A stretch of 63,731 nt of DNA, filler included, from Streblomastix strix (taxonomy: Eukaryota): the NCBI GenBank assembly GCA_008636045.1. It is 3 parts of 3 records of this genome, joined end to end, with 100 filler letters (N's around TTAATTAATTAA, not from the genome) between each part and the next. Parts side by side here need not be neighbours in the genome. Positions count along the whole stretch, not along the records: positions 1 to 21,180 come from SNRW01000391.1; 2 more parts are not named here. The stretch is one strand, 5' to 3'. A program made the position numbers and the translations under genes. This document shows, piece by piece, positions 127-52,484 of this stretch (the first letter of the stretch is position 1; every line of letters begins with the position of its first letter). The notes below the pieces were generated by a model. The model searched no databases and was not told where the DNA came from. It saw nothing but the letters and a program-made list of their open reading frames with translations.

Positions 127-1784
127 GCTCCGGTAATGCCTGTTGGTTTACCAAAGAAAATAGCAAAGAAATCAAATGTTCCTCTTAAAGTATTTCATTG
201 GTAGAAAGTACCTGATAGAGCAATTTCAAACACAATCTGGAAGGTTTATTAATTTTCATTTCTTTGATTTTGATTCCGATAATATTTATTTATATTTATA
301 TTTCATCACACTCCAACCAGGATTTAAATGATAATAAAGCTAAATTTAATGAAACTGAAATAGAGGAATTGTTTGCTAGAAAGACTGGAGGAGGTCCTAT
401 TGGAGGAATGGGAAATGTTGGACTATAACAACAACAAAATCAATCTGTTTCTATATTAGATGGGAAACGCATTGCAAATGTTGGAATTATGCTCACATAA
501 TTTGGATAGATGGCTCCAGAAGCAATAGCACTAGCAATTCGTCAGTGTGACACATCAAAACTCACATATGAACGATTGAAATCTCTAATATCATTTTTAC
601 CAACTCCAGAGGAGCGAGAGTAACTGTTGAGCTTTGAGGGTGATGAAACAAAACTTACAAAAGCAGAGCGATTCTTCTTGCAAATTATTAATATACCCCG
701 ACTAGAACAAAGATTAAAATGTCTTTTATTCAGAGAACATTCTTTTGAGATAATTGAATATCTACTTCCATCATACCAAACGGTTATATCTGCTTGTGAA
801 TAAGTGAAAACATCATAATCATTTAAAACATTGCTTGAATAAATTCTTGCAATAGGAAATTTCTTAAATGGAACAACACCGCAGGGAGGTGCATATGGAT
901 TCAAATTGGATGTTCTTGAAAAAATTGGTGATTTCAAATCTTCAGATAATAAAACCACTCTTTTTGAATATATTGTTATGTGGGCAGATAAATAGAATCT
1001 TTTAGACAAGTTAGATCATGATTGGTCGAAAGTTGCTGAAGCTGCTCGCCAACCTCTAACCACACTTGCTCAAGATGCAGCGGAACTATCTACAGGAATA
1101 AATTAAGTTGCGACAGAGATTAAAATGAATGGAGGATTGATTTAAGATGGTCATTTTGATAATGATGTGAATGCTGAGAGTGGAATAGATGGTGGATCCG
1201 CTCCAATGACTGAATAATAAAGAAAAGAAGCCAGATCCTTTTTAGAAGTTATGAACCAGTTTTATTCTGCATTTCGGATACAACTTGCTGAACTTCTTGA
1301 ATCAAAGTAAAAATGTGATTAAGATATAAATGATGTATTTCAACTATTCCAGGAGGATCCAAAAAAATTATCCAGTGAAGATTTTTTCTCAATTTTCACA
1401 AACTTTCTCGATAAATCAAAGGTTTAGATATTATTTATATGATTATATTAACAGTTTAATCAAATTTTTTCTTTCAATTTTTAACAGAAAACTATAAAAT
1501 CCTTAAAAGAAGTTGAGGAAAAAAGAGAAAAGGATAAATTGAGAAAAGAAAAGGAAGATGAAAGGAAAATTTCTAGAACATAAACTAGTAATCTAGGAAT
1601 GTAATCAAACCAAGGACCTTTATAACCTTCATCTTTATCTTCTAAATCTTTCCGATTACCTCCTGGTGCCGTACCAGTTTAAAAAGACCTGATTAACAAC
1701 TTAAACCAACAAATAGCGAGTGGAGCACTATTTTAACGCAGGCCAAACGTAAGAATTGGTGGGATACCTGGAAATAATTAATGA
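1..1784 (+). CDS. Formin (FH1-FH2), 5'-truncated by the window edge; exons 1-243, 321-1421, 1488-1784
   Basis: With TAR=Gln: Pro-rich (IPSAPG)n FH1-like region, then FH2 motifs LKVFHWQKV...TIWK, IEELFA, ILDGKRIANVGIML, FLPTPEE, LAIGNFLNG, GGAYGFKLDVL, KTTLFEYIV, FQEDP...EDFFSIF. GT-AG introns at 244-320 and 1422-1487 preserve the frame; ends at TGA 1782-1784. Confidence 0.95.
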
Positions 1785-3149: not shown

Positions 3150-3720
3150 AATAATTTGATGAGAATCTTCTGTTTCTTTATTCAGATGGTTAAATAATCC
3201 AAAAAAATTCTAGGTCCTGGATATATAATTGAAATAGATGAGACATGTGTGAGGAGAAGAAAGTGGTAAAGGAGGAGAGGAAAAGAACAAATTTGGGTAT
3301 TTGGTGTTATATTAAAGAAAACTGCTGATAAATAAGATTGATGAAGATATGTACTTATTTCAATTGCCTCAGATCATTCTGCAGAAACATTATATTAAGC
3401 ATTTAGACAGAATATTGCAGATATAATCATAGTTTTTAGTGAGCCATGAAAGTGTTATTCATTGATTTAGCGATATTATTTCGTCAATAAATAATTGAAT
3501 CATAAAATTTAGTTTGTTAATTCCAAAGATAGAGATGTTCACACTTAGCATATTTGGAATTTTTGGGATAAACTTAGACTTTTCATTAGAGGATGTGCTC
3601 CACCTGCACATAAACTTTAATTATATCTATAAGAATTTTTATTTAGAAAAGAATATATAAAGAAATGCATACCTGATTTCTTGTTTATTTTCAAATTATT
3701 ACCCAAATTAACTAGATCAA
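3150..3720 (+). mobile_element. Merlin/IS1595 (ISXO2-like) DDE transposase relic
   Basis: LGPGYIIEIDETCVRRRKWQRRRGKEQIWVFG...DHSAETL...VFSEP*KCY...LNHKIQFVNSKDRDVHTQHIWNFW...LYLQEFLFR matches the Merlin motif order (VEIDE, WVFG, SD-W--Y, NHS--FV, HTQ-IE--W, YL-EF-WR). There is an in-frame TGA at 3447 where W is expected; TIRs were not identified. Confidence 0.85.
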
Positions 3721-4189
3721 TCATTTCAATTATCATCAATGAATTTGCAATTATCGAAAGTATGGAAATTGGTTTGGATAAAAGAGAAATGTTGGTTCGA
3801 GCTGCAAATAAAAACTTTATGTTAAAAATGAAATTTTAATAATTGTCGAAAAGTATGATTTATGACCTCAGGACGTTTAAGGGGAAGATGTGGATAAGTT
3901 TGAAATGAACCTTTTAGAATAAGTAGTTAGGGAAGTGGAAGAAGAGGAAAAATAATTTCATTAAATTCTGATTTATGAAAAGAATCAATAAAAATATGAG
4001 TGAAAAAAAATATCTTTTTTAATAAATTAATTCAAAGTTATATTATTAAAACATCATAATTTTTGCCTAAATATAAATATTAAATAAAATCTATCTTCAT
4101 ACTTCTTACAGAACACTTATTATGAAATATTTAATCAATTATTAATTACATAACAATCCCAAAAAAGTAATTATTATATATATATTGTT

Positions 4190-6050: not shown

Positions 6051-7589
6051 CTTCACTACTTGATATGTAATAATTAAAATATAAATATGAATATAAAAAT
6101 CATTCAAAATTATCTATTTTTTATTTTTTTTTAAAATTTATTATTTTATTATTAATCATACTTCGCAATCTTTACTTCATCTTATTTTATTCTAATTTTG
6201 TTAGTACCATCTCCAAAATCTTCACTGATTGATAGACTTGCAAATAAATTACCGGCATTTGGTTAGAAATATATAAAGCAATGATTATTAATTTTATTAA
6301 TATAATTCAAATAGTAATAATGTTAATATCTAATTTACTATTAATATGTTTAATTCATTATTATTAATATATTCATAATAACATTGACATATTCTTACTA
6401 CTTTGAAAATTTTTCATCATTTTTCAGTTCTTCTTTTTCATTTCATTAATTTAATTATATTTTAATTCTTTATTCTGATAGGAATCTGTCATATTGACTA
6501 TAGAAACGTTTATAATTAGATTATATTAATATTACATACAATGAATTAATAAGAATAAAACGTTTATATAATAAAACAAATATATTATAATAATCTATTT
6601 AATATAAATACGGTTAATTATAAATATTTGCTTACATGTGTTATCTTTTGCCAAATTAACGAACAGAAGAGACTTGATCTATCCTAATTGGAGCCATCTA
6701 TAATCAATAATAATTGAATTAAATAAATAAATTAAATAAGTAAATAAAACAAATAAATATTAATGTTTAAACGCAAAATTTATATTTAATAATTTAATAG
6801 TTCATATTTTTTACTTATTTATTTGAGAATGGTTCTCTGATATCTTCATAATTGTCTACTTGCCTTCAAAATTATAGATAATAAGCAGTAATAAAACATT
6901 TGTATAATAAAAATAACGATATTTTTTAAATATCGATATATTATAATTAGGGTTGATTAAGAAATTAATATATAGATATACTTTCCCAATAATAAATTTA
7001 TTAAGAACTTGATATTGATTTTCATTATCTTTATCCAATTCAGATTCTTCTTTTTTTCTTTTAAACTCAAATTTTCATTCTTTTTACCTTCTACATTAAA
7101 TTTTTCTTTTTCTTTCATATTCAAAATTTAAGTTTTACTATCATTTTTATCTTTGAATAATAAAAACTTTATCTCAGATGAAGAAATTAAAGAATAAATA
7201 TTTTCATTTATATTTAATTACGAGATAGATTATAATAATTTTTATTTTGATTGAAGAGTACTTTGAAGTAAATTTGCTGCATTATATTATTCTTTTGTTG
7301 GTATTAATGATGATTCTTCATTTTTGTTTTCTTTTCTTTCTATTTTGTTCTTATTCTATTTATATTTATCTTTTTTTTACAAAAATATTACAGTTATCAA
7401 TGTTTGTATTGATGTATTTATTGAATTTTGGAAATAAGGTAAACATATTCGAATTATCGCTAGGTAAACCACTAGAAGCATCTGTATTTAACACATAAGA
7501 TAATGGAGCAATAGCTAAACTTTAATTTATTTATTTAATTAATAATTAATTTGAACATACATCGATTTTTGCCCATAATTCTCCATATT

Positions 7590-8454
7590 TATCTACATTT
7601 GCTATAGTTGGATCAACATTCAATGGATGAGCATGGTTATATCTAGCATAATTATTAAAATTACCTTTATCTCCAGATTCAGTGTCTTTTAATGGCTCAT
7701 TTGATACAGTTGGATCTATGCTTAATAAATGAAAATAATCATTACTAGAGTATGTAGTTGATGTTCCAATAGCCCCAGTTCCAGTATCTCTTTTTTGTTT
7801 ATCATCTGATACTTATAGTGGAAGCATATGCTCTCCTCTAGAATACTCATTTGCAGTTCCTGCAACTCCAGTTCCACTATCTACTAATAGAGTAGCATCA
7901 CTAGCAGGAGTTACTTAATCAGGAACTATATCTCCACTATTAGATTAATTCTAATCATACATCTATTGAGTTCCACTTTTAGCAGAGAACACAAAATCAC
8001 CATTGGTAGAGTTTTATAATTATTATATATCAGTACTAAATAAATAGTATCCTCTAAAATGAGTTTATTTATTAAGTTCTTAATTAATCACATTATTTTA
8101 CTATTAAAAACCTCCTAAATCTTATGTTACAATTCCGAATGTCTATTATATTACATTAATTTCTTATTCTAATGTAGTTATTTTACCTAAGAATCTATTA
8201 TTTAAAAAAATTTTATTTTTCAATGTCATATCATCATTAGCATCTAATTTCATTTCGTAATTCTAAGCATTATCTATTAATGCATTTATTAATGAATTTT
8301 AATCATCTACAATCAATTAATATTCCCTTCCTGATAATTAATTACTGAAACTTGATGATTTTCTTGAATGATATATCAAATATTGGAAATCTGAATATAT
8401 TAATGAACGAATCACTTAGATCTATTATTAGCTCAAGGTTTTAGCAAATATCAT
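7590..8454 (-). CDS. Tail-fibre/spike-like viral protein, 3'-truncated or degenerate
   Basis: Frame open from ATG 8454: coiled-coil segment, then THFRGYYL...NGDFVFSAKSGT...SGDIVPDQVTPASDATLLVDSGTGVAGTANEYSRGEHMLPL...DTGTGAIGTSTTYSSND...GNFNNYARYNHAHPLNVDP. These are ~30-aa G-x-G-x-x-G-T...Y(S/A)R-x-D/N-H-x-H-P repeats resembling phage tail-fibre HxH repeats. Confidence 0.65.
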
Positions 8455-8509
8455 ATTCGAATAAAGAAAAATAAATATAATCATATAATTTTTTTATTTA
8501 TCATTCGTT

Positions 8510-9555
8510 ATGATTTCATATTTTGATTGCAATTTATTGAAAATTAAGAATTCAGATCAATTAAGAGTTCCATATATTAACATAAACTCATCAAAGTCAA
8601 GATTCTTAATAGAATTCTCATCATAAACTTGTTTCAAATCACTTTCACTGAGTTTAACTCCCCAACATATAACATGTGTTAATATTCAAACAGTTTAAAA
8701 TATATAACTTGAACGTTAAACAATGAAAAACACAGTATTTTTGTTATGTCCATTGTCAGATACTAGGTGACATATTGTCTTAACTAATACTTATGAGAAT
8801 CTTTAAATATCAGCATTACTTCCTATATCATCAAATATTAATAATGATTTTAATAAAGAACTATGAAATAATATATGAATTCTTAATATCTTGAAGTCAG
8901 CATCACTTTCCACTTATGATATTTCTATTTTTTTCAAATAATATATTATGAATCATAGCAAGAATTGTAAATCTCATTATCATTGTTGTAGCACTGTATT
9001 TAGTGATGATATTAATGCATTACTATCGAAATATTTACGCAATTCTTCCTGCATAATTCTTAAGGATTTTTTTATTTATTATTCTGATGCTGCTGAAGTA
9101 ATTCTAGTTGGATTCTATTTTATAGAATTATTTATTAATATTCTTTCTTTCCTTCTCTATATGAAATCAAATTTGTACGATACATTTAATTCGCTTAACT
9201 TCCAGTAAGTATAAATTTCCTTAACAAAATATTTAATTTCATCAAATTAAGGGAGGAATTAATTAGCTTTATTATATGTTATATTAGTTAAGATTATATT
9301 CTTAGAGTTCCGATTCAAAGCCATAGTCTAATCAGCACCAAAATTAGAGATGTATAAAATGAATGGATTGATTCATTATTTATAAATTACTATTAATTTA
9401 CTTAATAAAGTAGTTTTTCTTGAACTAACTACATCAACTATATAATGATTCCCATTGATTAAGAATAATGAATTCTTTGTCAATGGCTTAGATTTATTAT
9501 CATTTAACATAGAAATATCAGTAAATGTTACAGATTATATTACGGATAACGTCAT
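8510..9555 (-). pseudogene. A32-like (FtsK-HerA) genome-packaging ATPase, frameshifted
   Basis: From ATG 9555: decayed Walker A HYIVDVVSSRKTTLLSKL (~9405-9440), Walker B SLLIFDDIG (~8825-8850), then HLVSDNGHNKNTVFFIVQ (cf. the RH...hhhhQ motif) and THVICWG. Confidence 0.75.
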
Positions 9556-10799
9556 TATATTTATTATAAAACAAACATATGTTAAATATAATAATAATAA
9601 TTATCAATTCCATATTTTATGATGTAAACTTCATTGTATCTATAATATCTCTATTAATTCATAAGTAATAATCATAGATAATATCATTAATAAAAGAATT
9701 ACGGAATTATTTTGATATAATTCTAATTCGTATTAACATAATTATATATATTTCAGTTAGTTTATCGTAAGAAAAAGAAATTTAAAAATGGAAATTTAAG
9801 AAAAACCAAATATTAATTAAGTAAGTTATTTCCATTGGTCCAAATACACAAATGAATAAATAGAGGATTTCATTAGATAAACAATTGAAAAAAAGATAAA
9901 GAACTTGCAAAGATGTGAAAATATATATTATATTTAAAATTATTGAATCTTAAAATTAATGATAATTTTAATTGAAGAACTCATTGTCTCCGACAGAACG
10001 AAGCCTGAAGTGAGCATATCTTATCTATGATAAGTGCAAGCAATAAATATTCTATCTAAAACATTATTTTTTAATTAGAAATTGCGTAAGCTCATTACCA
10101 CGAAGTGATTATCTCAATTATTATGAATAACATATGATTCACATATTTTAATTGCAAAATATTCAGGTAAAGAATATTTATTTAATATATTAATTATCAT
10201 ATTGTTATAAAGATTAATAAAATAATCCACAGGAACGTCTCCAGTCAAATGTTATGAACTAAAATATACCGAAAATATTGTACGTGTTAAAGGTATGTTT
10301 CTTGGTGTTCCATTAAATTACAGTTTATATCATCGCTAATAGTAGAAAACATAGTATATTCTCCTTTGCAAGCTTTATTTGGATCAGAATGTGAGATTAA
10401 AAGTGAAATATATATACACTTCCATTTTGTGTTATTAAAGTTCACCATTCTAATTTCTCATTCATTCCGTAAGCAATCGGTCTAGTAGTAGCATTTTCAA
10501 TTGGTTAATAAATTAATTAATCTTTATCAATAATATCTCCATTAGTTAATAATATTTAATTATTAATTAAACCTTATTTAATGAATTTATTAGCTATGAT
10601 CGATCATGAAAATAATTTAGATCCTATAATAATTTCTTCAGTATTTATTATTAGTAAATGAGATAAATCAGATAATGATGATATCTTAAAAAAATTGCTA
10701 AATTAAGTAAAATATTTTATAAATTCATTATCTATTTATTAAGTTATTTATTTTTACAACTTCAATAGTGATTCAAATTCTTATTATTATTTCTTTATC

Positions 10800-11757
10800 T
10801 TCTCATATTCAGATTTCATTTATTATAGTTCATCTTCTGATGGATCCTACAAATCACTGATGATTTGGCGACGAGGCTACTCAGTCTTTAAATCTAAAAG
10901 AGGTTACTCTTCTTGCTTTAGTATTCAACAAAAATAAACAATTTCATAATGGTGTTATATTCAGAAATGCTAGCATCATTGTAAATCTTCGATTTTCAAA
11001 AATCATTTAGTCCATTATCTGATTCTAACTTGTCAGATTATCTAATAAAATCTTTCTCAACTCTTTACAGCTTCTCAATATTATTCCAAAATACATTATC
11101 AATGTTAGAAGTAGAGACATTCTTGATGTGAACATCATTTATTCTTACGATTTCTTTCTTCTTATATTTTTATGAAGAACAACTGTTATATCTCATCAGT
11201 GGTTCTTCTATTATAAGTTCAATATCATTTTCTTCTTTTTACATTAAAAATGCCTAGAGTTTAAAATAGTTATTAGAGTTAAATATGAAATCTTCACCTT
11301 TTTTATGTGAATCAACCGTTCGCCAAATCGTATCTATGATGAATTTCTATACTTATAAGTTGGCATGAGATAAATATGAATCCTTAATAACCTATTCTGA
11401 CTCAAGTTAAGCTGTTTCACGTGAAACTTCTTTATATTTATGAATGTTATATTTTTATATTCTGGGTATTTTTGTCTAAATTTCTCGCTGTTGTTAATCC
11501 TCCTCATCAATTTATATTTCCTTTGATTAAATCGGAGTTTAGATAGATGAGTTACTCAATTCATTAGAAAATACAGGTTAAAATTCGTCATTTGAAATTT
11601 TTAACTATGGAATCTAAATTGATTTCTTAAAACCATTCATAATTGCCTCTTCAATGGCATATAATCTGGCTTCATCTTATTTTGATAATTCTTTTTTAAT
11701 AATACTCGCATATTTTCATTTATGAACTCTAATCTGAATTGTTTGTGTTATTGTCAT
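10800..11757 (-). pseudogene. Orphan ORF of the viral element (MTITQTIQIRVHK...), with internal TGA
   Basis: Long intron-less frame under TAR=Gln with few TGA codons; no recognised motif. Confidence 0.4.
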
Positions 11758-11799
11758 TAAATTTTTATGTTTAAATAAAATCAGTAAGAATCTTATAAA

Positions 11800-12483
11800 A
11801 TGAATCAAGTATAAGCATTAAAGAATCTCATAGAAAATGGTACTTCAATTGAATATTTTAACAATGGATGTAATTTGTAAGGTAAAGATAAGATTAAAAT
11901 ATATGATGAAGGAAAGAAAGCAGCATGAATTCTGATTCAAGCATTATAAACGAAATTATTATTAGAAGCAAGAGGTCAAGGCAGAATCAAACCTATTCGA
12001 GAATTAAAAAGATATATTGAATATAGCAGTGATGAAGCTGAAGATGAGGCAGAAGACGAATGTAGATACTATCAAAATTATCCAATGAATATCGATGATG
12101 ACGATTGTTATAATTAATAAATTATCGAGGAGAAATCAGCGGAGCTGCTTGAAGGATAACACCTGAAACCACGATAAATACTAAAATCATCACCTATGAA
12201 AATTATTAAGAAGCAATTGATTAATTATACTTCTTCATCAGTAGATTTAGAGGAATTAATTAGATTGCTCACTGAAAACTCATTCTTTAAGTAATAATAT
12301 CAAGAATCTATTAAGAAAGTTGAGAAATATAATGCAAAAATAATAAATTATAAATAAATGAAACTCAACGATGAATAAGCAGAGTAAATATAAACTCCTC
12401 CATAAGAATAACTTGCTGAATATTAAGAGTAAAAATATTAATAATAATAAGAAATTATATTTAATGAAACAGATTTATGGTGA
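11800..12483 (+). pseudogene. Orphan acidic ORF of the viral element (MNQVQALKNLIENG...)
   Basis: ~227 codons from ATG 11800 to TGA 12481-12483, with one internal TGA near 11926. Confidence 0.45.
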
Positions 12484-13149
12484 TTACATTCTTCGTCATT
12501 GCTTATATAATGAAATCACTCATCAACATCATCTTCAGTTGAATTATTAGGATTATCATATTTTTCTTATATATATTAGTTTTTAAAATATAAATTGTTC
12601 TATATCAGAAATAAATTCATTAATTCTTTAATTTTTATAATTTTTCCATCGCATTTATCTATTATTTTATGTATTTAAATAATTTCTTCAGAATTTCGAA
12701 TTACTATTCTTTAAAATCGTTAAATTAATAATATCTAAGAATTTATAACTCTATAATTATAATCATGTAATTTTTAACTTTCATAAGCATGAGCTATATT
12801 CTTCTTATAGACTATAGCAAATCTAGTTTCATCATCATTGGCATACTTATGTTTTCGAGTCTTCTTTGGAACTTCATTTCCAGTGATTATAGTTTAGAAG
12901 CATTACAAGCGAAAATTTTCATCTATTCTTCAGGTGATGGTACTTCTAAACTAAATTACTACTTGCATTTTATAACTTTTTACGCAATTGCCATCTTTCT
13001 ATTTTTTATTCGAAAATAAAATAAAAATATTTAAAAGTTAAAATATATTTATTTAATATATTATTAGTATTTTTATCTAATTATTGATTATTCAAAGCTA
13101 ATATTTTACAATATAATATTAGTAATTATAATATTTTTATATCTGAATA

Positions 13150-14060
13150 TGGCTTAAATAATTTGGCTGTTATGTTTCCATTAGAATATTTAATAAAGTT
13201 AGCTAATTTATTGAAATATCTTCTTTATTTAACGAATTGTTGACCTATTTTAGAGTAATTTAGATGAATCATTAATATATATTTCCTTGTGAGAATTAGA
13301 AAAAGTTTTTATTTTATTATTGAAATTTAATTTCAAATAGCTTATTTTTTTGCTTTCTTAGATATTATCCTTCAATATCTTAGTTATCATTAGCTTTTTA
13401 TTGTGAGTACTTATTATTGCAAGCAGAATGAGGAGTCTAGTTATACATCTAAACAATATAATACATTAAATCATTATCAGCAAATTTCAATGAATCATCT
13501 CAAAATCCATTATGAATTGTTCTAATAAGTAAGTCTACAACTCTATTATGATTAATTAACTTAGAATCTGTAAAGAATGAAGTAATTTTATTATCCTAAC
13601 GGAATGATTTCAAAATATTTCCATTAAATCCCATCTCACCATCACATTAAATATTGGTAACATGTTGATTCTTAACTAGTATTTACAATGTAATCATAAT
13701 TTAGCCTGTTGATTTATCTCTTAATGGGAAAACAATGAGATATTAAGAGTTGATATTGATACAGAATAGATATATTTAATTAGCTCTGATAATATGATCA
13801 TTCATTGAGAAAATTTAATCAATTTCCCATGAACCATGTTTTGGAGAGAAATATGGACGATTCAACTTAGATAATGGCTGAATTTGGTAATTAGGAGGAA
13901 TCTTTTGGATTTTCTCAGGTGATTTTCTATGAAGCTTCTTAAAATGCTCTATCTTATATTTGAAGGAATAATTTAGATATTTATTGCCAGTTAATAAACG
14001 AATATTTATTGTTTACAATCTATGTTTATTACTAAATCTTGATGCACTTGATTCATCATG
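13150..14060 (-). pseudogene. Retroviral-type (rve) integrase 1 with a D-D(35)-D triad
   Basis: KLNRPYFSPKHGSWEID (D at 13818-20)...YLFCININSQYLIVFPL...NIQCDGE (D at 13641-43)...NHNRVVDLLIRTIHNGF* (D at 13533-35; in-frame TGA at 13500-02)...MYNQTPHS. Confidence 0.85.
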
Positions 14061-14399
14061 ACTACTATACGATGACTGTTTTCCAGAGCCTTAACTTTTT
14101 CACGATGTTTTGGACCTAATTCTCCACGATTCTAGTCAAAATGGTCATTCTAGACAATTAACCCTATTTTTCAACGATTCTAGCACATTTTATCATAATT
14201 TATATAATTTAACTGAATCACAATAACCAGAACGCAAATCCCAACGATTATTTGAAAATGGAAAGTTGTGGAAAATCAGTGCTTAATATCAACGATTCTA
14301 ACACATTTTTACCATTATTTACATGCATTGATGCTAATAAATTACTAAGAAACAAATGGTGAAACATACAAAAATAAATCAATCATAACGTTGAAAATG

Positions 14400-15277
14400 T
14401 GATTATTAATTAGCTTATCGAAAATTATCTCCAAATAAATGATACATAATTTCATCTGGTGATTTTTAAGGTATTAAATTTATTTTATTAATTATTCTAC
14501 AAATTTATCATGATCCGACATCTTTAGTTTACTATTTTGAATAGTTTAATTGTATATCATTGCATTAACCAAAGTATAGATATTTCGAATATAATTTCCA
14601 AGCAAACTTGAATCTATTAATTTAATAACATTATTTATCTATTGTTACTCAGCAGTTGATACATTCATTTAATAATCTTCACGAATTTACTTACATTTCT
14701 CATGATCAATACCTGATTCAATTTCATTATATTCACATAGTGAGTCACATGTAGCCTCCAACATCTAGCCCAGCTCACTTTCGAATAATCCTTTAGTAAG
14801 ATCATCTGTTTGCACACCTGATGACTGTTAATTATTTTTATTATCCTACTATTAATAACGATTAATCAAGAATTTATTTATAGATGATTTAATAGTATTT
14901 TTATCACTTTATTCACTTAATTATTCACTTGTTTTTTCACTTACTTTTTCCTCCAATTAATTTGTATCACCAACATCCTGAATTATCGGATAAATTTATC
15001 TTGGAAATGATGTCTAATTTGCTGGATCTATTAATGTATCATTTTAATTTATATTTTATGTATATTTTTGTCTATTCTTAGGTATGGTGTCTAAATATAA
15101 TCTATCATGTCTACGCACAATCCGATGAGTTGGGAAACTGGTATATTTGTTAATAATGAACGATTTAATTTAATCAAGTTCTGGGTTCTCTAGCATAAAC
15201 ATCCTAACTTCTTCAAGTGTTGTTATTTTTGATAAATTCTATAATATTTCTAGTTAGTCTTGGTTTAATCGTGGCAT
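14400..15277 (-). CDS. Orphan ORF divergent from pPolB (MPRLNQDQLEILQNLSKITTLEEVRMFMLENPELD...)
   Basis: About 290 codons largely free of TGA; ATG at 15277, 84 nt from the pPolB ATG. The 3' end is approximate. Confidence 0.5.
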
Positions 15278-15361
15278 ATTTCGATGCAGTAAAAATATTA
15301 GATTCGATCATCTTAAACAACTTTTTACCATCATTAATACAACTTTTTATCAGATATCAAA

Positions 15362-18300
15362 ATGGCTAGAAACTATTTTCTAATTTCCGAAATTCGTGAT
15401 ATGCTCAATCAACTTGAAGTTCAATATGATCATAAATCAACCAAATCAGTACTTGAGTAACTATTATTAAAAACAATTAAAGAATAAGGTTACACTGGAC
15501 CAAAAAGTAGCATTACTAAGATAAGTGAGTTTGTTCACAATATTATTGCAACGAAAAATATATAGAATAATGAAGTGATTAATCATACAACTAACGATGA
15601 GATTAATGAATAAAATAGCAACATAGTTCAGACGTAGCCTTCAACCTATGATATAGCAGCCGAAGGTAATAAATAAGATGATGAATAAGAGTTAATATAA
15701 TTATAATAAGAAAGAATAAAAGCTAAATAAGAATTGAAATTAGCCGCAGAAAAATTGGATGGAATTAATAAGTAAATTGAACTTAGATAGTAAGTGACGA
15801 GGTTATAAAAGTTGACTAATCAATTAGCTATTGATAGTGAATAACTTAATGAAATTGAAGCTTTCGATACAGTCAAGAAGTCAATTAGAAATCGGCAACA
15901 AATCAATGATGCAAAGAGGTAACTATAAGAATTAAAGGATAAATAAGTGTAATAAATTAATGAAATAAAATAATAAAAAATCAATGATTTGAGCCCGATT
16001 AGTTAGAAACAATTAATCAATACAAGAGCAATGCTTGCACAAAATTTAGACTAGATATAGCTGTATCATGCGGCTAAGAAGATTTAACGATAATACTAAC
16101 AATATAAATAACGAAAAATAATAACTCACTTCGTTAAGGATCTCAGTAATACATTCAAGCAAGTTAAACAAGTTAGAGACGAAAGATTATCAGACTTAAA
16201 TAAAAATAAACTAACTGAAGAAGAGTATACAATTAGATAAGCGAAACTAACTGAATCATTACTTGGGTTTTATAAAAATAAATAATTATAAGAGCCTGAT
16301 CTCAAATTCACTAACGAATATAACGACTAGGTTGATGACTTGCTCAAGGCATTTATGTTCTTCACAACTGATGATTTGAAGAAATTTAATGAGATCCTAG
16401 TTGAAACAAGAAAGTGATATCGTGAATTGAACGAGGTTCATCTTGCTGGATTATCAGATAGAACTGCATAGATTAACAATGTTTAAATAGGGAACCTTAT
16501 CATACATATTACCTTAATAAATTTACTCATCTTAAATAATTCGACGATAAACTAGCATAAGTACATGAATTACATAAACATAGAATATATAAGATAGCTA
16601 TGGATTTCGGAAGTATCTGGTAAACAACTTAATCAACTCATTCCAAGACAGGAATCAGAAATGACTTTAGCTACCATTATTATAAATCTTCACTTGAAAA
16701 TTCACATAAAAATTACCCAATAATTATACGAAATAATGTTTCACTTAAACTATTCAAGGATAGAATCCACGATATGATTTACGAAGACTAGTCCCCTCTT
16801 CACTAGGAATCAAACACTCGAAAAGTAGCACTTTATTCATTTGTTATTATTGTTTATGAATTACCCCTTGGAACTAAATTAAGACATGAAGTTTAATGGT
16901 TCAATCAACACGATTACACTAGATCCATTGATTGTGATTACAATATCTGTTGGTTTATAGCTGCATCATTTTAATTACATCCTGAAATAAATAACTATAA
17001 ATCTCGTATCGCAAATGCTATTGAATTGTTCCTATAATTTCACGATCAAGTTCATAAGGCTGAAGGAAAATTAAGCAAATAATAAAAATAATTGCCAAAA
17101 GATTATGAAGGATTCAATTAAGATACAGATCTAGAGAAATTCCAGTAATGCTTTAAGCTAAACGTAATGACTTATGAATATGATAACTCTGAAAAATAAT
17201 TCAATAAAACTAACGAATATATTGTTAACTAAGATTATAAAACTACTCATATTTTATTAGCTTCTTTATCCATACAAGGTGATGAGAATCCGTAAGTTCT
17301 CGCTATGTTCATCAAAGACATTGATCGAGTAGTTGGTGGATACTTATGCAAGAAATGTAATCAAAAACTATTCAATCGGGCTAGTGATAACTTCAGTAGA
17401 GACTTTAAGACTCATCTAGAATCATGTAAAGGACCTGATCAATAGAAGCATCCAAAACTTGATAAATTAGCACAATCGTTTATGCCTTATCTCAAATCTA
17501 ATAAAACAATTCAAAAGCTATTCGCAACAGGTAAAATAAAGCTCTTCCCCAAGAATTTGGAGTAGGGAGTGAACAATATACTATAACCTACAGAAAATTA
17601 CATGTGCGTTGATGCAGAAACCGTTGAAGATCGAACTTAGGATGATGAAGCCAAAGGCTAAGCAAGCGAATAAATCTACGCATAACTCAAACCACTATCT
17701 ATAGTTATTGGTACATAAATTAACAATAAAATTTAATAAAAATACATTGATTCCAGAACATAAGATTTTATGAATAAATTCATAGAGCAAATGTGGGAGC
17801 TAGCGAATTAGGTTAATGAAGCAAAATTAACGTGTTAACTGATAGTGAAATTTGATAACGAGAATGAATAATAAAAACATTAATAAAAGATTCATCAAGT
17901 AGCAATCTTCGGATTCAACTCCAAGAAGTTCGATTTTAACATCATATTTCCATATCTAGTTTAATATCCTAAAATTATATTTAAAAATAACTAATATCTA
18001 GGATCAACTACTCAACAGAAGTAAGTGACAAATACACACACAGATTATCAGTTTGAATTAGTTTTCAAGGATGTTCTTACATTTATTCCTCTAACAACTC
18101 TCGATAATTTTGTTCATAAGTACGGTAATGGAACCAAACTAACTAAGGGTAAGTTTCCTCATGGATCTTTCAACACTAGCAATGTGAATCAGTTCTTATC
18201 ATCAACAGAACTATTTGATCATAAGGATTTTTATAATTAAACTAGTCGGAAAAATATTAGCGATAAAGAGTATTAGGAATACGTTGATAATTTCGATACC

Positions 18301-20517
18301 GTCGGCGGCATCAAAGATGCTAGTTTGGATGCAAATGGGAACAGAAAATTTGAAGATAGATGGTCCTATCTAAAGTACTACAATATTCGTGATGTAGAGT
18401 GTATGTTTGCCCCTATAAATAATTTAATAGATTTATGTTGGGAATAAGGTATTGATATGTTATCTTAGATATCCTTATCTCAAATAGCTAACTCAATTAA
18501 GTATAATTATGCGTGGGAAGACTTCGACATAAATGGTGATTACAATATAGAAACAGGTAATAAAGAATATAAATTTTATTCAGAAAAATGGAATAAGAAA
18601 GTTGAAGAGTATTTGCAATAAGATAACAAACAGGGAGAGATACTACAAATAACGTAATTGGTGATGATATAGATCATTTCAATCAGATGATCACAAATAA
18701 ATGCTGCTACTGCTAAGCTAAGTTCACTAATGTAAATATGCCAACTCTTGAACGATCTGACAACAACATTGCTCACACTAAAGATAACTGCAAACTAGCT
18801 TGTTAACTATGCAATTCTACAAGATCAAACAAAGATGCTGATGTGGCAAAACTAATGATATAGATGTACAAATATGCTATTGTTAAGAATCTGCCTATGA
18901 CAATTGATGATGAAGAAGTTTATTGGTTTTTACGTAAATCTATCCATGGCGGATTGAGTTAAGTATTCTATCAATATAATATAAAAGAATTAATTCACAT
19001 TAATAAATTAAAATATAATCCTGAAGAAAACAATATGACCACTTACGATTTAGATTACATATTCACTCATATTCTAGATCTTGATTTCAACTTATTATAT
19101 CCAAGTGCTTTCTGTGGAATTTATAATAAAAATAATCCGTATACTAGTGGTAAGATGTATATGGCTGGAGAATAACTGAACACATTAAAATTCGTGAAGC
19201 AAATGATTAGGATTATCGAGATACTAAGCGAAAAGAGATGATGAATATCATTAACTCAAAAGATAGATTCTCAGAGGAAAAGGGATAGCTATTCATAGTA
19301 TCAGTTAAGGGACACATTGATAAGGTTCACATTAACGAACACATTAACTTCCCACCTATCTGGAGGAAAAGAACTTATAAAACTGATGAGAAAACAATTG
19401 GAAAATTCACTTATGAAAAATGTAAAAATAAGGATTATCTGTTAATAAATTAGTAACAAAATTAACATCATTATTATCTATACACAATGAATATATGTCA
19501 TTCTCAAGCTATTACTTATGGCTATTGATTGATTATTGTTATTTCATTATCGATAATGTTGAAGAGATAGTATTATTCATCAAGCATACAGCGTTCAAAT
19601 CTTTCGTGGAAGTAATTGCTGAGAAACGTTAATAAGCAATGCGAGAAGGTTACTAAGCTAAATAACTTTATTTCAAAAATATAGTGAATAGTTCATATGG
19701 AGCTGATGGATAGAATAATGAAAAATTTGATAAGATTGGTATCTACAATAAATAATAATCATATCAAAAATAATTAAATAAAGGTTTCACTAACATACGA
19801 AAGATTTGTGATGACCGTTATCTTGTGTCGATTAATCCTAATTCATTTTCCGCTCATAAGTGCTTATAAGAAAGTATATTCACTTAAGACAATTCTAAGT
19901 TCTGGTATTTATGTTTCATTTACTTCTTCCTGTACAAATGTATTGATATGAATCGTGTTCACTTTTGCTGTATGGATACTGACTCAATGTATCTAGCTAT
20001 TAGTGGTTCAACTATTGAAGGATATAAATAATAATTTAAACATGTAATTAAAGATTAATAGTTTTGGGATGATCATTTCAAAGAGTGGCTTCCATGGGAA
20101 GGCTGTTCGATTGCTGAAGAAAAGAAGTTACTCGGTTGTGCTATCGAATCATAGAGAGAAAGCATCATCTGTTTAGCACCCAAATGCTATTCCGCAATTG
20201 ATGGCGAGGTTGATGATGTAATAAGAATGAAGGGAGTTAATGAAAAAAATAGTGGTTTGACAAGAGATGATTATATTAATTGTATTGAAAATAATTTAAA
20301 TGTATCAGTTCCAGTTACTTAAATTTAACTGAAAAATGGAGTTATGTCAATGATAAAAATAATTAAGTCTGCATTGACGGGAGTAGTTGATAAGATGATA
20401 GTGATTGATAGCGATATTTCAAAAGATTAATCATATCCATGTGCACCTCAAACTTATGGAGTTGAAGCTGCTAGTTATCAGTACTCACAAAGTGAGCGGT
20501 CTAAAGACTACATTTGA
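15362..20517 (+). pseudogene. Protein-primed family B DNA polymerase (Polinton-type) with several frameshifts
   Basis: ExoI CVDAET (17611), ExoII GFNSKKFD (17911), KGKFPH, ExoIII YYNIRDV (~18376), RKSIHGG, motif A LDFNLLYPS (19083), motif B FKNIVNSSYG (19675), motif C MDTDSMY (19975), LAPKCY, MKGV. Frameshifts at ~16.5 kb, ~18631, ~19168 and ~19430, a TGA near 16415, and terminal TGA at 20515-17. Confidence 0.93.
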
Positions 20518-20519
20518 TC

Positions 20520-21180
20520 ATTTATTATTTTTCAAATTTTTATATCAAACTCTTATAAATAAACTTAAGGTAATGAATCTATATTCTCACTAACTTTCTT
20601 GTAGTAGTATATTGGTAATTCTACAATAGATAATTTTTAGTGTTATGATATGAATTATCGTAAGAGTCTACATACTACATTACTGTTTCTATATTCTATG
20701 AACTCTGCTAACTCATTGAACTATCTTCTACGCTTCATATATGAGAAAGCAGTCTTTGATAAATCAAGATGAATCATCAAAATATTACCTTGTTTAAAAT
20801 TAAATAATCCTTCTGCTTTTTATTTTTATTTTTATTTTATATCATTTAACTCTTATTCTTTCATTCTGATGAATGCACCTTCAATATCAGAATTATACTA
20901 TATTTCTTCGGGAGAGAATTTATTATCATATACCAAATGTGGAGTCTTATTATAGATATAGACTAAATGTAATAATTTTTCAGGATCAGCAAAATCATTA
21001 CTGCTTGTGCCAAACCCATTACGAATCGTCTTAACTACTGAATCAACTATTCTATTGTGTTATGTGAACGGTGATCCTGTGAAAAAACACTAAATTCCTT
21101 ACTCTTCTAAGAATTATTGTACATCCTTACCTTTGAAGGATCTTTCACCATCTCCTCTTTTATTAGTTACGCGCTATTAA
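20520..21180 (-). pseudogene. Retroviral-type (rve) integrase 2, 5' part lost in the gap
   Basis: VTNKRGDGERSF (D at 21150-52)...FFTGSPFTQHNRIVDSVVKTIRNGFG (D at 21042-44)...DFADP; clearly homologous to integrase 1. Confidence 0.85.
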
Positions 21181-21280
21181 NNNNNNNNNNNNNNNNNNNN
21201 NNNNNNNNNNNNNNNNNNNNNNNNTTAATTAATTAANNNNNNNNNNNNNNNNNNNNNNNNNNNNNNNNNNNNNNNNNNNN
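21181..21280. other. Assembly gap with artificial TTAATTAATTAA linker
   Basis: Exactly 100 nt of N with a central linker, identical to the second gap. Confidence 0.97.
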
Positions 21281-30967: not shown

Positions 30968-32014
30968 CCGAAGAAAAGTGAAATGATTATCATACATTAA
31001 TATATATTTCTTTATTATAATTAAATATAAACTAAATTATAACATTTATATTTAATAAAATATTGCAGATATTGAAAAAAAAATTTTTTTTTTATTTTTT
31101 TTGCAATTGAAATTTTTTAAAAAAGTTCCATTTAAAAAGAATTTACAACATTATTTTATAACAACATTTTTATTTGTAACTTAAAAATTATAATATATTG
31201 AAAAAATATTTTAAATTATTTTTATTATTTTATTTGAGTTTTCAACTGTCAAAATGTCAACCTAATGTGTACTTGGCCGTCACCATCGAAAGGATTTTTA
31301 ACTTTTTAACAGCTTTAGAAATTATCAAACCACTACATTAATTTTTGAGATTAGAGAAAAAATTTGAATCAAGTAGAAAATATTATTGTTTATTAAAGTG
31401 AAAAGTTTAGAATTAAAAGAAAATACTATTTTAAATTAATAATGAAAGCACAAAATAATTAATTCAGCAAAAATTTCATATTGGATAAAAAGTTTGATTT
31501 AAGTTTTTTCTGCGAAATGGGGTTTGCGGAAAATTGGCGAAGTTTGAGAGGAACCAACTTGCATTTCTTGAGCCCCAAACAATATATCAATAAACATTCA
31601 TGATTGAAAGAAATAATCATCAAACAATTGAATAATCTAGCATTGAATGAAAAATACATTTTTTCACCTTCACTTTAATTAATTTGTATTTAAAAATCTT
31701 ATTTTTCTGCCCTTATTTAATTGATTATTAAATTTTAATATAATTTATTATTTTCACTAAGCTTACCCAACAAAAAACCGATTTTTATTTTCACTTTTTT
31801 TTACTTGTTTTAACTATTATTAACGAATTTATTTTACTTAATTGCATTATATTTTTCATAACTTCAGTTATTATCTTTCTAGTATATACTTTCTAAATTG
31901 ACAAATATTCTATTTAAACGTTAAAATTGCTTTTTTATAATTTTTCCTGATTCATCTGAATATTCACGGTTCCATTTATATATTTTTTTTTAAATTTTTA
32001 TTATTATTAGCAAT

Positions 32015-35000
32015 ATGAAAATGTTCTTTATACTTGTTGCTCTAGCTGCCTTGTGCAACGCTAAACAATTTATAGTTCCGGGGTAGTACAAGGAAATTTA
32101 TTTAGCATTTTAAGAAATGGCTACTAGTGGTAGTAACAGTGATATGATTGACATATAGTACAATTATTCTTATAACGCACAGTTGTAATATTCAAATTTC
32201 AATAATAGGAACTTAACAATAACAACCAATTACAATGCTAGTAGCCTAACGAGCACAGCTAGTTCAGCACTGTTTCAACTTAGTGGATCGAATTTCAATG
32301 TTTTTATAGCAAACATTACTATTTTGGATGCCAACAACGGTGGACTATTCAGTCTCTCATGCTCTTTGCTCCGCATTGACAATGCTACTATTAGAAGATC
32401 TATCTCTGTTTCAGAAACAGCCAATTCTGGGTACCTGTTTTAAGCTCCAGGTGCCAATATCGTTATAGGCGAGTTACAAGGTACCCCATTTTTCATAGCG
32501 AACAAGGTATTCAGCCTGTCAAACAACAATTTCACTGTGTACAAAGCCGACTTCTAGCAAACGTCCACATAAACTACCACAGCAATGATCTCTTCAAGTA
32601 ATTCAGATATCGTGTTTGGCGGTGAACTCACAGATTAACAACCAACAGTTACTGCAAACTTAGCGCTGCAAGTCACAGGTACAAGGAGCCCCATTCAGAT
32701 CAAGAGAGGCACATACACAGGAAGTTCAATAAGCACAGCTCTATTCAATATCGCTGGTAATGATGTTATTATTGGGCAAGGTGGATATGCTCCAAGATTC
32801 GTCAATTTGGGAACTTTCCTTCTGGCTGGCCGTGCATTGCAGATCATTAGTGGCACTTTCTCGCGTAGCTCTTAATCAGCAACATTAGCTTTCAGCTTCA
32901 CACAGAATGCCAGTGTCACGATTGGATCTGATTCAACAGTGCCTGTTTTTGATAGCATCAATAGTATTACACTCAACTATTGTAGACTGACAATTAATTC
33001 AGGTAATTTCATCAGTGCAAGCGCCAGTACTTATCTGTTGAACTCAGAGGCATCCAATATTACTATTGGAGATGAAAGTTCATAAGCACCGTCATTTACA
33101 GCATAGCGAATATTAAATGCTCATTTTGGTACATCAAATATTTTGAAGGGAAGTTTCGCTGGAATCGGTTCAGCTAATGAAGGAAATCTTCTGATCAGAC
33201 AATCCACATTTACTGTTCTAGATGGAGTTCCAAGTTTCACAAACATCGATCAGATCGTAATCAACAACTCAACAGTGAATATCAACAGTGGTACATTTTC
33301 TGGTATTGGAGAGAAACCTTTGATAGCAACTTCCAACAATACAGTTCTTAATATTGGTCAGACAACATCAACAGCTGCATTGACTTTCGCTGCTAATTAG
33401 ATTATAAACACAGCTGCCAGTCAATTGAACATCTTCAGAGGTGGATTCAGTAGTTCTTCAACAACATTGCCTTTAATCCAAGCTATAACAACTCCCATCA
33501 CAATTGGTACAGGAACTGGAGTACCAACTTTCACAGCTCAAAGAGTCATTGATATTCTCGCTTAGTTGCTCACAATCAGCAAAGGAACTTTCACTGGCAC
33601 AACAGCATTGGGGACATATCTCAAGACAAACGGTACTAATGTTACTATTGGAGCAACAACCACTGGAAATGTGCCATCATTCACTCTTGATCAGTTTGAT
33701 ATATAAGGAGGTAGAGTTGAAATAATCAGTGCACAGATCACATGTGGTACTGGAACAAACAGCGTAATTAAAGCCACGCCCAATTCACAGGTGATAATTG
33801 GAACAAGCACTGGAACACCTACTTTAACACTGACAGCTGCAACGATCGTTGAAGTTGCATCTGCTACACTTACGATATACAGGGGCGTATTCAATGGAGC
33901 TACATCAGCACTTGGAACAATTATCAGGACGCTTAATTCTTAAACAACGTATGCAGCACCTGTAACACCACAGATTAATGGAATTGAACTTATTGAAGTT
34001 GATGGGGGAACAATAACAGTATAATCTGGGTATATAATAAAAGCTGCTGAAAGAACTAGTCCATTAATTAGAGCGTTTAATAACCCAACTGTGGTAATTG
34101 GTTAATAGACTGCAACTGGAACTGCTTTAACTTTAATAGGAACAACAATACTTGATATCGTTGAGGGAACATTAAGTATCTATAGAGCGACAATTAACAG
34201 TTCATCACAAATATAGTACGCATTCCAAGCTACAAATACATATATATCACTAGGAAACAATGATGCATATCCAACTTTCAATGGCTTATGCTAGATAAGC
34301 TAGATAGGGAATGTATTGAACATCACACGCGCTGCCTTTTCAGGAGTAAATGGAGCGAATCCTTCAATAAGAGCAACAAATTCGGCTACTATAAATGTTG
34401 GTATTGGAACAAATACACCAACTTTTAGCTGCTCAAGAGCTATTGGAATCTATGACAGTGTTTTGAATATTTACAGAGGAGCTTTTTCTTCTTAAACATC
34501 TGCTATAGCTTCTTATGTAATTTAAGCTACAAACTCTGCAGTTACAGTAGGCAATGGGCAAACCCCAACTTTTACTAGTGGTAATGTATTCGATACTTTA
34601 AATGGAACACTAGATATCATATCTGCTAATTTTACAAGCTCTGGAATAGATGTTACAACATCCAACACAGTTACAACAATCGGAAGTCTTTCATCAATAC
34701 TTAATATCTCATTTACTGGTCAGAAACTATTGTCTATTACTGGATCAAGTATCAGTATAATAAATGGAACTTTTACTTCAACTTCAGACACACTTCCACT
34801 ATTTGCAGCTGCTGAGACATCAATTACAATTGGAGAAGGTGGATTAGCTCCCATATTCCAATCACCGTATTAAATTATAGATCAAACATAAGGAAAGGAA
34901 TTGAATATATACAGCGGTGCATTCACAGGAACGCATGCAGATCTACCTGCATTATCACTTATTGGTGTTAAAGTCGTAATCGGAAATCAAACTCATTTTC

Positions 35001-42415: not shown

Positions 42416-42457
42416 GTATGAAAATTTAATATATATAATTTTTATTTAAATTTAATC

Positions 42458-42557
42458 NNNNNNNNNNNNNNNNNNNNNNNNNNNNNNNNNNNNNNNNNNN
42501 NTTAATTAATTAANNNNNNNNNNNNNNNNNNNNNNNNNNNNNNNNNNNNNNNNNNNN
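42458..42557. other. Assembly gap with artificial TTAATTAATTAA linker
   Basis: 100-nt N block with the same linker as the first gap. Confidence 0.97.
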
Positions 42558-52213: not shown

Positions 52214-52484
52214 TTAATGCTAAATACTTTTAAAAAATAAAAATAAAAATCAATTTACATTTGAAAATAATGAAAAAAAGTGAATTTTTTTAAATTGTTT
52301 AAAAAATCCATGTAAAATAAGTTTGTATAATAATCATGCTTATTTAATTATTTAAATATATTATTTTATTAATAATTACATTTTTTTAAAAGTTAAACTA
52401 TGACTATTGTTAAATAAAATAAATAAATTATGAAATATTGATAAAAATTGATATAGATATAAAAATAATATAAATTTACAAAGA

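What the first reader, a model, noticed from the sequence alone, without database searches (positions are those of the whole stretch)
7590..21180. Endogenous Polinton-like virus with fibre gene, packaging ATPase, pPolB and two integrases, written in the host's TAR=Gln code
Seen: a 13.6-kb intron-less gene cluster with motif-level matches to a fibre-like protein, A32-like ATPase, pPolB and two rve integrases, plus at least three orphan ORFs. Known: pPolB + rve integrase + ATPase is the Polinton/Maverick core, normally with one integrase, a protease and major/minor capsid genes. Inference: this is a decayed copy of a divergent, possibly undescribed virus lineage of this protist. Its ORFs use TAA/TAG as sense codons throughout, implying long adaptation to this host. 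An unrecognised capsid may be among the orphans or beyond the gap.
Basis: partly seen in the sequence, partly recalled or inferred. Interest (0 to 1): 0.88.

Follow-up and report, generated by a model that had tools for sequence, protein, structure and literature searches.

The report
Two broken protist viruses, stacked together
This stretch holds the broken remains of two different Maverick/Polinton-type DNA viruses lying end to end in a termite-gut protist genome, one likely inserted into the other, so the 'virus with two integrases' is really two ordinary copies of an already reported virus group.

Summary
The genes are real: fibre-like gene, A32-like ATPase, pPolB and two rve-like integrases, all read with TAA/TAG=Gln. 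But they are not one virus. Left of 14,060 lies a decayed copy of a high-copy family ('A': two fibre genes, ATPase, int1). Its gene order recurs in other Streblomastix strix records, where int1 follows a different pPolB (22 of 32 gene models; 0 of 32 carry the window's type). Right of 14,060 lies a less decayed, roughly ninefold rarer family ('B': pPolB plus convergent int2), cut by the contig end. The 'gap' at 21,181 is an artificial contig joiner. No major capsid gene is present, and one 'orphan' is the N-terminal part of pPolB. S. strix endogenous viruses, their TAR=Gln code and about 820 capsid copies were reported by Bellas et al. 2023 (Metamonada group). Most likely B inserted into A's integrase gene; an assembly chimera is not excluded. 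What is left as new is modest: a gene map, at least four pPolB families in one host, and a probable Polinton-in-Polinton insertion.

The parts
216..1442 (+). Host formin FH2 exon: host flank on the same contig, showing the viral DNA is integrated
   Evidence: Pfam FH2 E 3.5e-74
7417..8455 (-). Element A, fibre-like gene 1; internal deletion at about 7,600 and 3' truncation at about 7,417 (left edge of the viral DNA)
   Evidence: 60-64% to S. strix homologues, one named 'Tail fiber protein' in UniRef; homologue residues ~217-356 absent; a run contig with 0 differences spans 6,520-7,783. Fibre function itself is inferred from repeats and that name; no Pfam hit
8503..9555 (-). Element A, A32-like packaging ATPase pseudogene: 3 in-frame TGA (9,373, 8,686, 8,557), a frameshift pair (9,062, 8,935), Walker A degenerate (DVVSSRKT against GAVGSGKT in other copies), Walker B LLIFDD kept
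   Evidence: 75% to P0056 over 349 codons; homologues P0059, P0061 hit Pox_A32 above cut-off
10120..10650 (-). Element A, second fibre-like gene, broken (1 stop, 2 frameshifts, internal loss)
   Evidence: Aligns with P0064, P0070, P0102, P0310, P0368, P0374, which continue into the ATPase
10690..10891 (-). Element A, small coiled-coil ORF
   Evidence: Matches the N-termini of P0064, P0305, P0308, P0374
10999..11757 (-). Element A, conserved 251-aa protein of unknown function, 1 stop (11,716); not capsid-like
   Evidence: 69% to P0071; fold of the family uninformative, pLDDT 33; no match to the capsid profile
11929..12483 (+). Element A, acidic ORF, unassigned
12528..12994 (-). Element A, ORF following the integrase, 1 frameshift (12,876)
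   Evidence: Continued by integrase gene models P0113, P0114, P0121, P0123, P0124, P0133
13081..14060 (-). Element A, integrase int1 (rve-like; D, D and a third Asp); 1 stop (13,500), 1 frameshift (13,276); first ~37 codons missing
   Evidence: 56-79% to 32 S. strix models; homology to P0126 begins at residue 38 = window 14,060
14060..14061 (.). Junction between element A and element B
   Evidence: End of int1 homology; summed depth falls from ~21,000 to ~2,300 across this bin in run X1
14115..14301 (.). Three 21-nt direct repeats near the left end of element B, possibly subterminal repeats
   Evidence: 100/86/71% identity; role not tested
14279..15277 (-). Element B, 333-aa orphan, predicted all-helical, not a jelly roll
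   Evidence: No Pfam hit; single-sequence model pLDDT 46, no strands; no BFVD match at E<=0.001
15362..20517 (+). Element B, protein-primed DNA polymerase B including its coiled-coil N-terminal region; 1 stop (16,417) and 4 frameshifts (~16,473, 18,632, 19,171, 19,416)
   Evidence: 79-88% to closest S. strix copies, 30% to P0347 in the N-terminal part; 38% to a Trichomonas vaginalis protein; tree
20535..21180 (-). Element B, integrase int2, convergent on pPolB, 5' part cut off by the contig end, no disablement in 196 aligned codons
   Evidence: same arrangement in loci L001 and L010; P0001's last exon matches its antisense strand at 70-74%
21181..21280 (.). Artificial contig joiner, not genomic
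   Evidence: Identical N44-TTAATTAATTAA-N44 spacer at 42,458-42,557

Best explanation
The region is two different, broken Maverick/Polinton-type endogenous viruses of the Metamonada group meeting at 14,060, and a younger low-copy element (B) likely inserted into the integrase gene of an older high-copy element (A). Shown: the two halves belong to different repeat families with different pPolB partners, different depth and different decay. Family A runs pPolB-A > int1 > ORF > (ORF on the other strand) > 251-aa ORF > small ORF > fibre 2 > ATPase > fibre 1 on one strand; here its pPolB and the first ~37 codons of int1 are replaced by family B DNA (orphan, pPolB-B, convergent int2), and its fibre end is deleted. 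From established Polinton biology (not tested here): active copies excise, replicate by protein-primed synthesis from terminal repeats, are packaged by the A32-like ATPase into a double jelly-roll capsid bearing fibres, and reintegrate with the rve integrase; all proteins are made by host ribosomes reading TAA/TAG as Gln. Inferred: B's integrase placed B inside A, so the rest of B (its capsid module and right end) and then the rest of A (pPolB-A) would lie beyond the contig end. Both copies are dead as they stand. Confidence that there are two elements is about 0.9; that B is a true insertion into A about 0.6.
For: (1) Of 32 S. strix integrase gene models, all 32 are closer to int1 than int2; 22 carry an upstream pPolB piece of family A, 0 carry one closer to the window's pPolB (P0047, a 33rd S. 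strix hit of a third family, was left out). (2) Those pPolB-A pieces form their own clade (SH-aLRT 100, branch 1.17), apart from the window's pPolB, which groups with P0001/P0002 (98) and the P0003 family (99) (quick tree). (3) Summed contig depth at 80% likeness steps down at the junction: median 18,072 vs 1,952 in X1 (9.3x), 4.4x in X2, 14.8 vs 0.25 in X4 (these three runs are one sample). (4) The order of A is kept in other records: 11 of 52 hits are ATPase+fibre chimeric models; tags 009369/009370/009372 on a 12,060-bp contig give small ORF+fibre 2+ATPase+fibre 1, the 251-aa ORF and int1 in window order; four more adjacent ATPase/fibre tag pairs. (5) This ATPase type also shares contigs with a third pPolB family (tags 010952/010957, 005644/005648); no such link to pPolB-B was seen. 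(6) pPolB with a convergent integrase directly behind it recurs in L001 and L010 and in P0001's record. (7) int1 homology stops sharply at 14,060. (8) A carries 12 disablements in 1,385 aligned codons, B 5 in about 1,870 (counts), fitting a younger B.
Against: No read or contig listed spans 14,060 (only the longest pieces were shown, 9,949 not shown), so the junction is not confirmed outside the assembly. Run X3, from another study, shows no depth step (ratio 1.2, p 0.19). The tool states that summed depth is not a copy number. No TIR, target-site duplication or right end of B could be found because the contig ends; the letters at 14,061 read ACTACT, the reverse of the AGTAGT start recalled for Polintons. 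Only 0.53 of sampled words of 12,000-21,180 are in the best run. Bellas 2023 (section 7) warns that short-read assemblies of such repeats give false stops and chimeras. 'Same contig' for other records is inferred from equal length and close tags. The int2 family was barely sampled (best match 56-59%).
Confidence: 0.68

Rival explanations
1. Two families, but the join at 14,060 is an assembly chimera of short-read, amplified single-cell data, not a real locus.
For: Both sides are high-copy repeats; no listed contig bridges the junction; 0.53 of words held by the best run; Bellas 2023 section 7 describes such artefacts.
Against: The two sides share no long homology at the junction that would invite a mis-join (int1 vs int2 39%; no repeat of 25 nt or more links them). 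The A copy is 64-75% identical to its family while family members are 92-93% alike, so it is a distinct, separable copy rather than a collapsed consensus; the left host junction with its deletion is matched with 0 differences by a run contig.
Confidence: 0.15
2. Two families brought together by a deletion or recombination between neighbouring elements, not by B integrating into A.
For: A's other end is also deleted (fibre truncated), so deletions do act here; no canonical terminus is visible at 14,061; mosaic and multi-element loci are reported for these viruses (bioRxiv 2026.10.13.758929, passages).
Against: B is less decayed than A, the break is sharp within int1, and short direct repeats lie just inside B's left end, as expected near a terminus.
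Confidence: 0.12
3. One divergent virus that really encodes two integrases, fibre, ATPase and pPolB, for instance a recombinant that became its own active lineage.
For: All genes lie contiguous, intron-less and in one GC block; X3 shows no depth step.
Against: 0 of 32 int1-type models are linked to the window's pPolB, 22 are linked to another; ninefold depth step in the matching sample; int1 lacks its 5' end exactly at the step; unequal decay of the halves.
Confidence: 0.05

Closest known systems
Metamonada (MMN) group endogenous viruses of Streblomastix strix (Bellas et al. 2023, PMC10120064)
   Same: Closest homologues of every searched gene are S. strix proteins (16 of 54, 52 of 52 and 33 of 41 hits); TAA/TAG=Gln, which the paper states for S. 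strix EVEs together with the inference of long association; pPolB + rve + A32 ATPase; the paper counts 820 capsid hits, about 10.8% of the genome (Table S4).
   Different: The group is defined by its major capsid protein, which is absent from this window and was not linked to family A or B in any of 237 proteins held. In the passages and supplement rows seen the paper gives no gene map or pPolB families for S. strix.
Maverick/Polinton elements of Trichomonas vaginalis and other parabasalids
   Same: pPolB 38% identical to a T. vaginalis protein over 84% of the query; standard-code relatives in metagenome loci L008, L010, L011, L016, L020 carry the same pPolB, integrase, A32-like ATPase and MMN-type capsid.
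   Different: Standard genetic code; ATPases too divergent to align directly (profile domain E 0.01); fibres unrelated at sequence level. Two 2026 preprints leave these elements unplaced among virus classes.
Canonical animal Mavericks/Polintons (class Polintoviricetes)
   Same: pPolB, rve-type integrase and A32-like ATPase; integrated in host DNA.
   Different: No adenovirus-like protease, no Polinton PY capsid, no TIR or TSD found; third catalytic residue of the integrase is Asp in all six aligned sequences where retroviral integrases have Glu (recalled).
PLVs and virophages carrying nested retrotransposons (cryptophyte PLVs, Cafeteria EMALEs; PMC12220804)
   Same: An endogenous virus interrupted by a second mobile element that supplies an extra integrase (passages).
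   Different: Here the second element is itself a pPolB-encoding Polinton-type virus, not a retrotransposon.

Membership tests
Maverick/Polinton-type element | Protein-primed DNA polymerase B | tested here: met
   Element B: PF03175 E 1.7e-4, below the curated cut-off; DFNLLYPS and MDTDS motifs; 54 homologues. Element A: absent here, present upstream of int1 in 22 of 32 other models.
Maverick/Polinton-type element | rve-type integrase | tested here: met
   One per element; homologues hit rve weakly (E 0.002-0.005); best PDB hits are integrases.
Maverick/Polinton-type element | A32-like packaging ATPase | tested here: met
   Element A, pseudogene; homologues pass the Pox_A32 cut-off. Not present in the assembled part of B.
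Maverick/Polinton-type element | Terminal inverted repeats and 5-8 bp target-site duplication | tested here: inconclusive
   None found; A's left end is deleted and B's right end is beyond the contig end.
Maverick/Polinton-type element | Adenovirus-like maturation protease | tested here: inconclusive
   No Pfam hit in ORFs or six frames (the six-frame scan also missed pPolB, so it is insensitive); both elements are incomplete.
Metamonada (MMN) group EVE | MMN-type double jelly-roll major capsid gene | tested here: not met
   Not in this window: 150 family proteins including S. strix ones gave no tblastn hit better than E 0.001 anywhere and only E 0.02-0.04 within 7,400-21,180; profile of 89 gave best E 1.4; control found 77 of 89 planted 100-aa and 49 of 89 60-aa fragments (S. 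strix names). Both copies are truncated, so this does not show that the families lack it.
Metamonada (MMN) group EVE | pPolB and integrase related to those of elements that carry the MMN capsid | tested here: met
   Loci L008, L011, L016, L020 carry related pPolB plus MMN capsid, L016 and L020 also the integrase; tree.
Metamonada (MMN) group EVE | In S. strix, genes read with TAA/TAG=Gln | tested here: met
Metamonada (MMN) group EVE | Minor capsid (penton) | tested here: inconclusive
   15 small ORFs of relatives, including a candidate, gave no hit in the element at E<0.05; single-sequence searches only.
   0 of 32 int1-type models carry this pPolB type; depth step at the junction.

The most novel reading that the evidence does not exclude
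S. strix carries at least four pPolB-distinct Metamonada-group virus families, and they integrate into one another: family B knocks out the integrase of the roughly tenfold more abundant family A, a deep-branching pPolB lineage with two phage-like fibre genes whose capsid gene was not linked in any record seen and may be borrowed from another family. That would be virus-on-virus parasitism inside one code-6 genome, in a group that current frameworks cannot yet classify.
Probability: 0.15. Interest if true: 0.6.

Novelty: new member of a known kind. Interest (0 to 1): 0.3.

Why it matters
Mainly as a correction: an apparent two-integrase virus is a stack of two copies, a trap for any scan of repeat-rich protist assemblies. 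The existence, abundance and genetic code of these viruses are already published. The residual value is a first gene order for the dominant family, evidence for several polymerase families in one host, a direct codon test that the viruses used TAR=Gln while active, and a candidate Polinton-in-Polinton insertion, in a group that a 2026 preprint says needs more genomes before it can be placed.

Tried and rejected
No whole genome is held, so no genome-wide tBLASTn, family consensus, TIR or TSD search was possible; co-occurrence was read from chimeric gene models and locus tags instead. Six-frame Pfam scan of 6,601-21,180 found nothing, not even pPolB: insensitive. Viral contigs gave no relative of pPolB or ATPase, genome contigs none of the ATPase. 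Capsid among the orphans: rejected. Folds: 251-aa family pLDDT 33, 333-aa orphan pLDDT 46 with no BFVD match; both weak. The protein atlas could not be used for the 333-aa orphan, so it has no language-model look-alike search; ORF 11,929-12,483 and 9,560-10,120 stay unassigned. No RNA holder listed. Capsid profile on 237 non-capsid proteins found no chimeric link of capsid to family A or B. The pPolB careful tree did not finish; quick trees were used, 69 of 71 and 32 of 47 rows passing the coverage filter; long branches meet at families A and C, so their sisterhood is not claimed. Supplements of the bioRxiv preprints were not seen. The search of earlier findings returned nothing three times. 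Literature searches for a Polinton-in-Polinton insertion listed none by title or abstract start; only PMC12220804 and the 2026.10.13 preprint were opened, so absence from print is not established.
Full report
Setting. The window is three contigs joined by an identical N44-TTAATTAATTAA-N44 spacer at 21,181-21,280 and 42,458-42,557. The finding lies at the right end of the first contig, whose left part holds a host formin exon (FH2, E 3.5e-74). The ORFs open only with TAA/TAG read as Gln. The best homologues are annotated Streblomastix strix proteins (16 of 54 pPolB hits, 52 of 52 hits for the 7,318-11,715 frame, 33 of 41 integrase hits), so the host is most likely this oxymonad. No genome was held.

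Observation. Fibre-like gene, ATPase, pPolB and two integrases are present. The ATPase (9,555-8,503) is 75% identical to an intact copy but has three TGA stops, a frameshift pair and a ruined Walker A; intact copies pass the Pox_A32 cut-off. pPolB has one stop and four frameshifts, and its N-terminus extends into the 'orphan' 15,233-16,417. Both integrases match a profile of relatives and, weakly, retroviral integrases. A second broken fibre-like gene lies at 10,650-10,120. The fibre label rests on repeats and one UniRef name, not on a Pfam or structure match.

Two elements. Gene predictors often fused neighbouring viral ORFs in other S. strix records, which reveals gene order. 11 of 52 hits are ATPase+fibre fusions; tags 009369, 009370 and 009372 on one 12,060-bp contig reproduce small ORF, fibre 2, ATPase, fibre 1, the 251-aa ORF and int1; P0125 and P0130 run from a pPolB piece through int1 into the 251-aa ORF. 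So the left half is a real, conserved module (family A). But of 32 S. strix integrase models, all closer to int1 than int2, 22 carry an upstream same-strand pPolB piece of another family and none carries the window's type (P0047, of a third family, was left out of the count). In a quick tree these pieces form their own clade (100), away from the window's pPolB, which sits with P0001/P0002 (98) next to the P0003 family (99); P0040/P0047 form a fourth group. The A-type ATPase also shares contigs with the P0040 family. Homology to int1 ends at 14,060, lacking about 37 N-terminal codons. Contigs of run X1 laid at 80% likeness give median summed depth 18,072 left and 1,952 right of that point, against 70-237 in the flank; X2 and X4 of the same sample agree, X3 from another study does not (ratio 1.2); the tool warns that this is no copy number. 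On the right, an integrase converging on pPolB recurs in standard-code relatives L001 and L010 and in the record of P0001. The right half (family B) has 5 disablements in about 1,870 aligned codons, the left 12 in 1,385. Each element thus has one integrase, the usual state.

How they came together. The simplest reading is that B integrated into A's integrase gene; then B's capsid module and the rest of A lie beyond the contig end. This step is inferred: no TIR or target-site duplication is visible, and no listed contig bridges 14,060. A chimeric assembly (Bellas 2023, section 7) or a deletion remain possible. The left host junction and the fibre deletion are matched with no difference by a 1,264-base run contig, so at least that decay is not an assembly error, though this run may be the source sample.

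Capsid. Four capsid-type proteins from related loci seeded a search that found 660 proteins, best 150 listed, among them S. strix proteins; one begins with the same stretch as the S. strix capsid in Bellas Table S3, which was matched there to Sputnik capsid. Neither these 150 nor a profile of 89 of them finds anything in the window, while the control recovered 77 of 89 planted 100-aa fragments. The 333-aa orphan is predicted helical; the 251-aa model is too poor to read. No capsid link to family A or B was found in 237 proteins.

Genetic code. At columns where homologues conserve Gln the window has 52 TAR and 17 CAR; at conserved His and Pro columns first-position C>T is seen in 14 of 92 (Fisher p 8e-15). 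TAR use is therefore far above what decay after insertion gives, so the active elements were read in code 6. The test does not date the association, the columns come from code-6 translations, and 45 TAR codons sit at non-Gln columns (for example Trp), part decay, part misalignment near frameshifts.

What is known. Bellas et al. [quoted passage not shown] Jeong et al. (bioRxiv 2023.08.22.554363, passages) list the Polinton gene set and high pPolB2 copy numbers in Metamonada. Two 2026 preprints (passages) leave the group unclassified and describe mosaic, multi-element loci. Nested retrotransposons in PLVs are reported (PMC12220804, passages); a Polinton nested in a Polinton was not seen in the listings, a shallow check. 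The replication and packaging cycle given in the explanation is textbook knowledge, not tested here.

Verdict. Works like, and very probably is, two truncated dead copies of Metamonada-group Mavericks; strict membership by capsid cannot be shown in this window. New member of a known kind; interest 0.3.

Noticed in passing
window 3,150-3,908 (+): Broken ISXO2/IS1595-like (Merlin-type, name recalled) transposase between the formin gene and the virus; Pfam DDE_Tnp_IS1595 E 2.5e-10 read through stops. A similar transposase interrupts the Maverick in locus L011.
   Followed up: partly
window 16,060-16,120 (+); proteins P0347, P0351: pPolBs of the sister family carry a Pfam IQ calmodulin-binding motif above cut-off in their coiled-coil N-terminus (E 1.3e-4). 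The window has a similar stretch (AAKKIQRQY) but no hit at E<0.001. One paper holds the terms Polinton, IQ motif and DNA polymerase (listing only).
   Followed up: partly
window 13,500-13,560 and 21,040-21,060 (-): The third catalytic position of the integrases is Asp, invariant in six aligned sequences, 36 residues after the second Asp: a DDD rather than DDE triad (DDE norm recalled).
   Followed up: no
window 14,055-14,070: The junction reads ...CATCATG|ACTACTATACG...; the ACTACT triplet repeat could be B's terminus but is the reverse of the AGTAGT start recalled for Polintons.
   Followed up: no
window 9,560-10,120: Stretch between fibre 2 and the ATPase is covered at family-A depth but matches no protein held; a short plus-strand ORF remnant may lie near 9,790-10,040.
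   Followed up: no
L008, L011, L016, L020: Standard-code metagenome relatives, some flanked by protist host genes (L012, L014), carry pPolB, an MMN-type capsid and in part ATPase, integrase and fibre-like genes; 660 capsid relatives exist in the representative library, a large pool for classifying this unplaced group.
   Followed up: partly
window 31,604-42,453 (+), second contig: Very long GC-richer ORFs (2,683 and 945 aa) with signal-peptide-like start and repetitive beta-strand pattern, like large surface proteins; no Pfam hit at E<0.001. Unrelated contig.
   Followed up: no
window 46,474-52,249 (-), third contig: Multi-pass membrane TmcB-like gene (Pfam TPR_TmcB E 1.3e-16) whose last exon has His-rich, hemerythrin-like motifs by eye. 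Unrelated contig.
   Followed up: no
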